Source: the human T2T-CHM13v2.0 reference genome, Homo sapiens. Taken from it: a stretch of DNA of 64,000 bases. This document shows positions 29,636 to 30,880 of this stretch, piece by piece. The first letter of the stretch is position 1, and each line of letters starts with the position of its first letter. The notes below the pieces were generated by a model. That model searched no databases, was not told where the DNA came from, and was given only the letters and a program-made list of their open reading frames with translations. The translations under genes were made by a program, and so were the position numbers. The DNA lies in NCBI RefSeq assembly GCF_009914755.1, contig NC_060933.1, one strand, 5' to 3'.

Positions 29636-30031
29636 GTTTTAATTTGTATTTTAGTTCTAAAATTTCTACTTGGTTCTTCTTTAAAAGTTAGAGTCTAAAT
29701 ATTTTCTGTCTTTCTAGGCTTCCCCTTTCCTGTTCCTTTGGCTAGAGAGAAGAGGCTTTTTGGGGACCTCTTTTTGTCTATACCCATTAGTGTTTGTGGG
29801 CTGCCAGCCTGTTCAGCTCCAAGTCTGGGATATAGGAGGCAAAAAGAAAACCCAGGGAACCCATCTGTATGTTGTTCCTCAGGTCTCAAGGTCCCTAGCC
29901 AGTCTCCCTTTTTCTCCACGTTTCAGATTATTCTTTTGTTATGTATCTCCAGGGATTTTAGTTTTACTTGGTGGAGGAATAGGAAGAAGTGAGTCTATTG
30001 TATCTTGTCCAGAACCAGAAGTCCTTTTTGT
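29636..30031 (-). repeat. 396-bp inverted duplicate of 31138-31533
   Basis: Exact reverse complement. Three ORF-track peptides recur on opposite strands, identical across the shared arm (e.g. MEKKGDWLG... at 29695-29919 and 31250-31474). Confidence 0.97.
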
Positions 30032-30039
30032 GCAAAAGT

Positions 30040-30479
30040 GCTCATACCTGTAATCCCAGCACTTTCGGAGGCCAAGGCAGGCAGATCACTTGAGGTCAGG
30101 AGTTTGAGACCAGCCTGGCCAACATGGTGAAACCCCGTCTCTACTAAAAATACAAAAATTATCAGGGCGTGATGGCAGGTGCCTGTAATCCCAGCTACTC
30201 GGAAGGCTGAGGCAGGAGAATCGCTTGAACCCAGGAGACCCAGGTTGCAGTGGGCCGAGATCATACCACTGCACTCTAGCCTGGGCAACAGAGCAAGACT
30301 CAGTCTCAAAAAAAAAAAAAATTAGAACAGCACCTGACACATTAAGGAATAAATAATTAGTTATCTGAATGCAATAAATGTAAAAAGACAAACAAAAGTC
30401 AAGAGAAGGACACCCACTAGCAAAGAAGGCACCGAATCCTTCTGTCTTCTCCCCTAAATGTGGGCACAAAACAAGGGTG
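30040..30479 (+). repeat. 440-bp direct duplicate of 33352-33791 (5'-clipped Alu plus ~160 bp of its 3' flank)
   Basis: Same Alu-private variants (ttatcagggcgtgatggc, gagacccagg), same A14 tail and same flank ttagaacagcacctgacacattaagg...; 8 substitutions counted by eye. Confidence 0.97.
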
Positions 30480-30880
30480 CAAAAGCACTGACTGTGTTTG
30501 CCAAATGATTCAGCAGACAGGCAGAAGGGGGTGGCGCTCAGGCTTACAGGAAGGAAGGGTCAGAGAACAATGTTTTTGGGATGGTAGGGTCCTCATCATT
30601 TTTGTAGCATAAGAGGAAAAAATCAACAGGAAGAGATTAAAGATATGAGAGAGGTAAAAGGTTTGAAAGCGAGATCCTAGAGGGGGAATGAGATTTGGAG
30701 CAAGTAGAGACATTTTGGGAGAGAAAGACTGGCACCTCTTTCTCTAGGAGTGAAGAAATGAGAGGTGCAAGTAAACTGGAAAGGAAGCTGAGGAAAACCC
30801 AAGCATGACAGCTTACTTTGCTTGGTGAAGTGCAAAGCATGGTGGCTTTCAGAGAGTGGAAAAGATGGTGGTAAGGAACT
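30480..30880 (-). mobile_element. L2 fragment
   Basis: Purine-rich L2-like sequence (tgcaaaaagcactga; gagatttggagcaagtagagaca). Approximate. Confidence 0.5.

What the first reader, a model, noticed from the sequence alone, without database searches (positions are those of the whole stretch)
29636..30489. 844-bp composite templated insertion stitched from two downstream donors (serial template switching)
Seen: an inverted copy of 31138-31533, an 8-nt spacer (30032-30039), then a direct copy of 33352-33791. Both copied segments run into the same octamer GTGCAAAA (30030-30037 and 30477-30484), which is the sequence where the right flank resumes. The next spacer bases AGTGCT (30037-30042) are the reverse complement of AGCACT at 30484-30489. 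There is no terminal poly(A) or TSD, and junction microhomologies are only 1-3 nt. Established: this is the FoSTeS/MMBIR or polymerase-theta type signature. Inference: the nascent strand left, returned to the target, left again and returned, and so duplicated an Alu without retrotransposition.
Basis: partly seen in the sequence, partly recalled or inferred. Interest (0 to 1): 0.8.

Follow-up and report, generated by a model that had tools for sequence, protein, structure and literature searches.

The report
Two-piece copied insertion from nearby DNA
An 844-base stretch between BARX1 and PTPDC1 on human chromosome 9 was stitched from two nearby pieces of DNA, one flipped and one not, by a known kind of copying error rather than by a jumping gene.

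Summary
29636-30031 is a perfect (396/396) inverted copy of 31138-31533. 30040-30479 is a 432/440 direct copy of 33352-33791. The 8-nt spacer repeats 7 nt of the right flank in register.

The direction of copying can be shown within this genome.
- The downstream Alu is full length with a 9-nt target duplication. The upstream one lacks its first 13 nt and left duplication but carries 158 nt of the donor's flank.
- Donor 1 lies inside an old interspersed repeat that runs on past the copy boundary.

L1-type retrotransposition features are absent. The long tracts lie far outside polymerase-theta insertion sizes, so the best fit is MMBIR/FoSTeS-like serial template switching, with an aborted 7-nt return to the break.

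One complication: the two pairs differ in divergence (0/396 vs 8/440; p 0.006-0.07 depending on how CpG sites are treated). Two Alu differences arose in the donor and two in the copy, so the event is old, roughly 8-18 My.

So either the inverted pair was later homogenised by gene conversion (favoured), or two events hit the same nucleotide. No primate genomes were available to decide. This is a known kind of event at a locus not found in print, of modest interest.

The parts
29636..30031 (+). Segment A: inverted copy of 31138-31533 (396 nt, 100% identical). It holds about 340 nt of an old interspersed repeat plus the unique bases on either side of it.
   Evidence: 396/396, sharp ends; of 40 scored genome hits, 2 are the local pair at 100% and 38 are family members at 70-76% identity, all within query positions 47-391.
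30032..30038 (+). 7-nt tract GCAAAAG, identical and in register with right-flank bases 30479-30485. Read as an aborted return of the growing strand to the break end.
   Evidence: chance 6e-5.
30039..30039 (+). Orphan T with no template in either donor in register.
   Evidence: the copy has T where the donor has A.
30040..30479 (+). Segment B': direct copy of 33352-33791. It is an Alu lacking its first 13 nt (30040-30307) with an A14 tail (30308-30321), followed by the donor's right target duplication TTAGAACAG (30322-30330) and 149 nt of the donor's unique flank.
   Evidence: 432/440, ungapped.
30477..30485 (+). Target 9-mer GTGCAAAAG, where the right flank resumes. GTG (30477-79) is shared with the end of donor 2. 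The 9-mer is part of the quasi-palindrome GTGC-AAAA-GCAC (30477-30488).
31138..31533 (-). Donor 1 (original). It sits at the left end of an old interspersed repeat that runs from about 31134 to at least 31770, and to about 32290 in alignments to longer copies.
   Evidence: 3 family copies have a second collinear piece at window 31546-31684; 4 of 6 family loci cross 31533/31534 in one alignment, 1 stops at 31530, and 1 covers only 31582-32299.
33352..33791 (+). Donor 2 (original). It covers most of a full-length Alu (33339-33633), which is flanked by the 9-nt target duplication TTAGAACAG (33330-33338 and 33634-33642), plus the downstream unique flank.

Best explanation
A single break between 29635 and 30477 (present coordinates) was repaired by DNA synthesis that switched templates several times, in the manner of MMBIR/FoSTeS. 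Shown: the two segments, their donors, their orientation and the junction sequences. Inferred: the order of steps below. (1) The left end, probably ending ...GAAG-GT, primed on the + strand at 31533 and copied 396 nt back towards the break. (2) It let go and annealed by GT to the right break end, added only GCAAAAG, and let go again. (3) After one orphan T it primed at 33352 and copied 440 nt away from the break: a 5'-truncated Alu plus its flank. (4) It then annealed by GTG at the same right-end nucleotides and completed repair. Both donors stayed intact, so an Alu was duplicated without retrotransposition. From the divergence of the direct pair (1.8%), the event is roughly 8-18 My old; the mutation rates used are recalled. 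The inverted pair (396-nt arms, 1106-nt spacer) was probably kept or made identical afterwards by arm-to-arm gene conversion.
For: The structure and sharp boundaries are confirmed. Donor 2 is the original: it is a complete Alu with a 9-nt target duplication, while the copy lacks 13 nt and the left duplication but carries 158 nt of donor flank. Donor 1 is the original: the old repeat it lies in continues past the copy boundary. Three collinear second pieces support this (E 8.4e-9, 1.6e-8 and 6.3e-4), and 4 of 6 family loci cross the boundary. The two segments abut, separated by 7 nt of the right flank in register (p=6e-5), and both run into the same target nucleotides through GT and GTG. An independent second insertion would have to land on the same base. 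Short aborted synthesis after a microhomology of under 3 bp in AT-rich sequence, followed by another round, is the described behaviour of end capture (PMC7165422 passages). Strings of copied templates in mixed orientation at one locus are a described class (PMC7025897 passages). Of the five Alu differences, two arose in the donor, two in the copy and one is an unpolarised CpG site, so they reflect elapsed time rather than sloppy copying. Gene conversion keeps large inverted repeats above 99.9% identical (PMC3723533 abstract) and is concentrated in high-identity duplications (PMC10172114 passages).
Against: Equal age predicts equal divergence, but the counts are 0/396 against 8/440 (p=0.0057; 0.023 against the non-Alu flank alone, 3/158; 0.021 without two CpG transitions; 0.071 without all CpG-context sites). 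Gene conversion between arms as short as 396 nt was not shown here, and the papers I read concern much larger repeats. The direct pair, 3.3 kb apart, was not homogenised, so conversion would have to have favoured the inverted pair. The spacer-to-Alu junction has no microhomology in register. The left junction's microhomology (GT) assumes that no bases were lost at the target. No outgroup sequence, second human assembly or read data could be examined.
Confidence: 0.6

Rival explanations
1. Two separate events hit the same nucleotide. An older templated insertion of B' created a 9-bp target duplication (GTGCAAAAG on both sides). A much younger inverted copy of 31138-31533 was then inserted exactly between the left flank and the left 9-mer.
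For: The divergences are unequal: 8/440 against 0/396, p 0.006-0.07. Without conversion this puts A under about 3-8 My and B' at about 8-18 My (rates recalled). The 9-mer flanks B' alone, as a target duplication would.
Against: A second independent break would have to fall within 0-2 nt of the first junction. I know of no mechanism that would couple the two events. The heterogeneity test weakens to p=0.071 when all CpG-context sites are dropped.
Confidence: 0.15
2. One event with no later conversion. The zero differences in A reflect chance together with a lower mutation rate in AT-rich, CpG-poor sequence.
For: A has 40% GC and one CpG, while B' has 7 CpGs. Four of the 8 differences lie in CpG context in one copy or the other. 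The strictest test gives p=0.071.
Against: The Poisson chance of 0 in 396 at B's rate is 0.0007-0.024. The non-Alu flank alone shows 3/158.
Confidence: 0.08
3. End joining captured two free DNA fragments, released nearby, into a double-strand break. No polymerase template switching was involved.
For: Junction overlaps are only 0-3 nt. The donors are intact.
Against: A third captured 'fragment' of 7-9 nt, identical and in register with the break end, is unlikely (6e-5). Both donors lie within 3.3 kb on the same side of the break.
Confidence: 0.07
4. RNA-mediated origin: a read-through transcript of the donor Alu was reverse transcribed into the break, either by L1 machinery or by RNA-templated repair.
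For: B' is an Alu plus its downstream flank, and it ends about 19 nt before the first TTTT run downstream of the donor. This loosely resembles a polymerase III read-through transcript.
Against: There is no terminal poly(A). No target duplication surrounds the whole insert. The 9-mer border is not an L1 endonuclease-type site (consensus recalled). Segment A is a non-genic stretch that starts inside a repeat, is inverted, and is joined to B' in the same insert.
Confidence: 0.03
5. Assembly artefact in T2T-CHM13.
For: A perfect 396-nt inverted repeat could in principle be a mis-join.
Against: B' differs from B at 8 sites, so it is not a collapsed or duplicated read. The junctions carry specific short tracts. 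A RefSeq enhancer feature (hub table) spans the left junction as one 1200-nt block, which suggests that older references share the junction; this is inference and was not checked.
Confidence: 0.02

Closest known systems
FoSTeS/MMBIR complex rearrangements with templated insertions (germline)
   Same: Several template switches; nearby templates; a mix of inverted and direct copies; junctions with short or no microhomology; donors retained.
   Different: The scale is small: 0.4-kb tracts, all within 4 kb, with no large copy-number change. It is present in a reference genome rather than in a patient. Whether it was one event is not proven.
Chains, bridges and cycles of templated insertions, and local n-jumps, in cancer genomes (PMC7025897, passages read)
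   Same: Two or more templates copied from distinct places and strung together at one host locus, with a return to the host. Inverted junctions are frequent.
   Different: Those are somatic events, often drawing on several chromosomes. This one is germline, old and strictly local.
Polymerase-theta templated insertions (TINS; PMC7165422, passages read)
   Same: Repeated rounds of annealing, short synthesis, release and re-annealing at short microhomology. The 7-nt GCAAAAG tract after a 2-nt overlap fits this pattern.
   Different: TINS are 3-30 bp, copied from within 50 bp of the break, with first tracts rarely over 10 bp. The two main tracts here are 396 and 440 nt, with donors 658 and 2872 nt away.
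'Complex duplication' insertion class in long-read population surveys (PMC12350158, section 51 read)
   Same: The inserted sequence aligns near the breakpoint in both forward and reverse orientation.
   Different: That class requires at least 75% of the insert to align within a 2-kb window. Here only segment A (396 of 844 nt, 47%) has its donor within 2 kb, so such a rule would miss it.
Palindromes and inverted repeats homogenised by arm-to-arm gene conversion (PMC3723533 abstract)
   Same: The inverted arms are more alike than their apparent age predicts.
   Different: The arms are 396 nt rather than kilobases to megabases, and the locus is autosomal and intergenic. Conversion is inferred, not shown.

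Membership tests
FoSTeS/MMBIR-type complex templated insertion | Two or more segments copied from nearby loci, with the donors left intact | tested here: met
   A and B' are copies. Donors 31138-31533 and 33352-33791 are intact and shown to be the originals.
FoSTeS/MMBIR-type complex templated insertion | Mixed orientation of the copied segments | tested here: met
   A is inverted and B' is direct.
FoSTeS/MMBIR-type complex templated insertion | Short microhomology at the junctions (the typical 2-5 nt is recalled) | tested here: inconclusive
   GT at the A-to-target junction and GTG at the B'-to-target junction. The target-to-B' junction has 0 nt in register plus an orphan T. The left junction is GT only if no target bases were lost.
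FoSTeS/MMBIR-type complex templated insertion | All junctions made in one event | tested here: inconclusive
   For: the segments abut through a 7-nt in-register flank tract (6e-5). Against: 0/396 vs 8/440 differences, p 0.006-0.07.
FoSTeS/MMBIR-type complex templated insertion | Origin at a stalled or collapsed replication fork | not testable with these tools
   No experimental or replication-timing data were available.
Polymerase-theta templated insertion (TINS) | Insert of 3-30 bp | tested here: not met
   The tracts are 396 and 440 nt; only the 7-nt tract fits.
Polymerase-theta templated insertion (TINS) | Template within about 50 bp of the break | tested here: not met
   The donors start 658 and 2872 nt from the insertion point; only the 7-nt tract is local.
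L1-mediated retrotransposition of an Alu (target-primed reverse transcription) | Poly(A) at the 3' end of the insert | tested here: not met
   The insert ends AACAAGGGTG. The A14 run is internal, 158 nt from the end.
L1-mediated retrotransposition of an Alu (target-primed reverse transcription) | Target-site duplication around the whole insert | tested here: not met
   There is no repeat at 29635/29636. The 9-mer flanks B' only.
L1-mediated retrotransposition of an Alu (target-primed reverse transcription) | The copy carries element sequence only, not the source locus's own target duplication and flank | tested here: not met
   B' carries the donor's right target duplication and 149 further flank nt.
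Inverted repeat kept alike by gene conversion | Arms more alike than their age predicts | tested here: inconclusive
   0/396 against 8/440 in the co-inserted segment; p=0.0057 down to 0.071 depending on how CpG sites are treated.
Inverted repeat kept alike by gene conversion | Concerted evolution: arms alike within a species but different between species | not testable with these tools
   No primate genomes are held ('no relatives'). Collection scans gave 0 hits.

The most novel reading that the evidence does not exclude
A sub-kilobase autosomal inverted repeat (396-nt arms, 1.1-kb spacer) created by a templated insertion has been kept perfectly identical by arm-to-arm gene conversion for roughly 8-18 million years. 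That would be concerted evolution at a scale far below the known sex-chromosome palindromes. The spacer, which holds the copied Alu, might also flip orientation between haplotypes.
Probability: 0.45. Interest if true: 0.45.

Novelty: new member of a known kind. Interest (0 to 1): 0.3.

Why it matters
This is a clean, base-resolved germline example of a multi-template insertion. It preserves the footprint of a failed return to the break, which helps separate synthesis-based repair from fragment capture. It also shows that an Alu can be duplicated at the DNA level, and repeat-age or retrotransposition counts would misread such a copy. The two co-inserted segments provide an internal clock. If apes show that it was one event, the locus becomes a natural test of how short an inverted repeat can be and still be homogenised by gene conversion. 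A 2-kb search rule for 'complex duplications' would miss it. None of this changes the current understanding of repair pathways.

Tried and rejected
- Outgroups or a second human copy. The held genome has no relatives. A 26-nt stretch of the left flank gave 0 hits in genome contigs and 0 in viral contigs. I did not search for the predicted empty site, because that would have meant typing a joined sequence.
- An empty-site paralogue within this genome. The 400 nt on each side of the insert (29236-29635 and 30480-30879) match only themselves.
- Retrotransposition was rejected on the poly(A), target duplication and flank content.
- Error-prone copying as the source of the 8 differences was rejected. 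Of the 5 differences in the Alu, 2 are derived in the donor, 2 in the copy, and 1 is an unpolarisable CpG site, judged against 4-6 other Alus in the window. The 3 flank differences could not be polarised.
- A hairpin at the target as the cause of the break: -3.6 kcal/mol, z -1.5, and 17 of 200 shuffles fold as well. Not significant.
- The AGTGCT/AGCACT relation as a further template switch is possible but explains only one extra base.
- Further pieces of the same event. A repeat scan of 20000-42000 found no other high-identity non-Alu pair.
- Locus in print. 0 papers hold PTPDC1 together with 'template switching' or 'templated insertion'. Supplementary variant tables of population studies were not examined and may list it.
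- I could not name the old repeat family that holds donor 1, because no repeat library is available here.

Full report
**What is there.** The window is T2T-CHM13 chr9:106,144,001-106,208,000 (hub table; confirmed).
- Positions 29636-30031 are the exact reverse complement of 31138-31533: 396/396, with the first base outside each end mismatching.
- Positions 30040-30479 align without gaps to 33352-33791, 432/440 identical, with 8 substitutions and an A14 run of the same length.
- Between them lie 8 nt, GCAAAAGT.
- The word shared by the two segment ends is a 9-mer, GTGCAAAAG, at 30030-30038 and 30477-30485. A third copy, at 26404, is unrelated.
- After the GT that both donor 1 and the target share, the next 7 nt equal the right flank in register. 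The chance of that is 6e-5.

**Which copy is the original.**

*Donor 2.*
- It belongs to a full-length Alu (33339-33633) bounded by a 9-nt target duplication, TTAGAACAG, at 33330-33338 and 33634-33642.
- The upstream copy starts 13 nt inside the Alu and has no left duplication.
- It carries the right duplication and 149 further nt of the donor's unique flank. It is therefore the derived copy.

*Donor 1.*
- A search of the whole assembly with segment A gave 637 candidates, of which 40 were scored. Two were the local pair at 100%. The other 38 were 70-76% identical and confined to query positions 47-391. So A holds an old interspersed repeat plus unique bases on both sides.
- Searching with the donor in its context (30938-31733; 643 candidates, 40 scored) showed three family copies, on C3, C1 and C10, with a second collinear piece. 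These pieces match window 31546-31684, beyond the copy boundary (E 8.4e-9, 1.6e-8, 6.3e-4).
- Six family loci were aligned to the window with gaps. Four (L003, L004, L005, L008) cross 31533/31534 and run to 31770-32294. One (L006) stops at 31530. One (L007) matches only 31582-32299.
- Identity beyond the boundary is low, 50-58% of alignment columns against 65-69% inside, but a conserved block at about 31550-31612 is plain.
- The repeat therefore continues natively through the boundary at the downstream site. The upstream copy is a truncated piece of it.

The 400 nt on either side of the insert are unique in the genome, so no empty-site paralogue exists within CHM13.

**What it is not.** Target-primed retrotransposition is excluded.
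- The insert ends AACAAGGGTG, with no poly(A).
- No duplication flanks the whole insert.
- The Alu copy carries its source's own target duplication and flank.

Polymerase theta cannot account for the long tracts. Its templated insertions are 3-30 bp, copied from within 50 bp, with first tracts rarely over 10 bp (PMC7165422, passages). Here the tracts are 396 and 440 nt, and their donors start 658 and 2872 nt to the right of the insertion point.

**Most likely mechanism (inferred).**
1. A 3' end at the left side of a break, probably ...GAAG-GT, primed on the + strand at 31533.
2. It copied leftwards, back towards the break, to 31138.
3. It was released and annealed through GT to the right break end, adding only GCAAAAG.
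4. It was released again, and after one orphan T it primed at 33352.
5. It copied rightwards to 33791, was released, annealed through GTG at the same target nucleotides, and this time completed repair.

Two points fit this path. A short aborted tract after an overlap of under 3 bp in AT-rich sequence, followed by another round, is how failed end capture is described. Strings of copied templates in mixed orientation at one host locus are a described class, both in cancer genomes (PMC7025897, passages) and under the MMBIR label (PMC8421209, passages). I therefore read it as MMBIR/FoSTeS-like long-tract copying with microhomology-mediated end capture.

It follows from the target's GTGC-AAAA-GCAC quasi-palindrome together with the Alu's own GCT. 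It explains only the orphan T (chance 1/4), and the hairpin is not better than shuffles (17 of 200 fold as well).

**The complication.** If both segments entered together they should be equally diverged from their donors. They are not: 0/396 against 8/440.

| Comparison | One-sided Fisher p |
|---|---|
| All sites, 8/440 vs 0/396 | 0.0057 |
| Non-Alu flank only, 3/158 vs 0/396 | 0.023 |
| Without the two CpG-transition differences, 6/438 vs 0/396 | 0.021 |
| Without every CpG-context site, 4/422 vs 0/394 | 0.071 |

An earlier test used 146 for the flank length, which was wrong; the flank is 158 nt.

The differences are not copying errors. I compared the pair with 4-6 other Alus in the window.
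- 33355 and 33543 are derived in the donor.
- 30066 and 30253 are derived in the copy.
- 30233 is a CpG site that cannot be polarised.

The direct pair's distance is K=0.018, about 8-18 My at 1.2-0.5e-9 per site per year (rates recalled). Without conversion the inverted pair would be younger than about 3-8 My.

**Weighing the readings.**
- *Two independent events.* These would need a second break within 0-2 nt of the first junction, with no known coupling between them. I give this 0.15.
- *One event followed by gene conversion of the inverted arms.* This needs a process known for large inverted repeats (PMC3723533, abstract only) and for high-identity duplications generally (PMC10172114, passages). 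It has not been shown for 396-nt arms, and it did not homogenise the direct pair 3.3 kb apart. I give the one-event reading with conversion 0.6.
- *One event with no conversion (chance).* I give this 0.08.
- *Fragment capture, an RNA route and assembly error.* These share the rest.

**Comparison with what is known, and novelty.** The event belongs to a known kind: complex templated insertion by serial template switching. Population long-read surveys already have a 'complex duplication' class for inserts that align nearby in both orientations (PMC12350158, section 51). That rule's 2-kb window would capture only 47% of this insert. Short-range template switches are reported as widespread in great-ape genomes (PMC7954356, abstract). 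I found no paper linking this locus to such an event (0 hits in each). Supplementary variant tables were not examined.

**Verdict.** The single-event claim is unproven, and polymerase theta is unlikely for the long tracts. This is a new example of a known kind, of modest interest. The open and testable point is whether the perfect 396-nt inverted pair reflects gene conversion or a second hit. Ape T2T assemblies would settle that directly.

Noticed in passing
window 34077-34458: A minus-strand Alu (poly-T at its left end, about 34113-34422) is flanked by 36-nt direct repeats at 34077-34112 and 34423-34458, 35/36 identical. That is an unusually long target-site duplication.
   Followed up: partly
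window 36929-37028: A 42-nt unit occurs twice, 58 nt apart, at 95% identity: a small local tandem duplication.
   Followed up: no
window 31134-32300: Donor 1 is the left end of an old interspersed repeat. A unit of about 340 nt (31144-31486) is found alone in most scored genome hits, while some copies continue for more than 1 kb, which looks LTR-plus-internal-like. Many of the scored hits lie on contig C23. Within it, 31486-31543 resembles 32103-32161 (about 85%). The family could not be named without a repeat library.
   Followed up: partly
window 28690-29889: A RefSeq 'enhancer' feature (hub table) runs 254 nt into segment A. That part is identical to 31280-31533 on the other strand, so short-read assays cannot tell the two places apart. 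The feature spans the left junction as one block, which suggests older references share the junction (not checked).
   Followed up: no
window 30477-30488: The insertion target reads GTGC-AAAA-GCAC, a 4-bp-stem quasi-palindrome. It is weak (-3.6 kcal/mol) and no better than 17 of 200 shuffles.
   Followed up: yes
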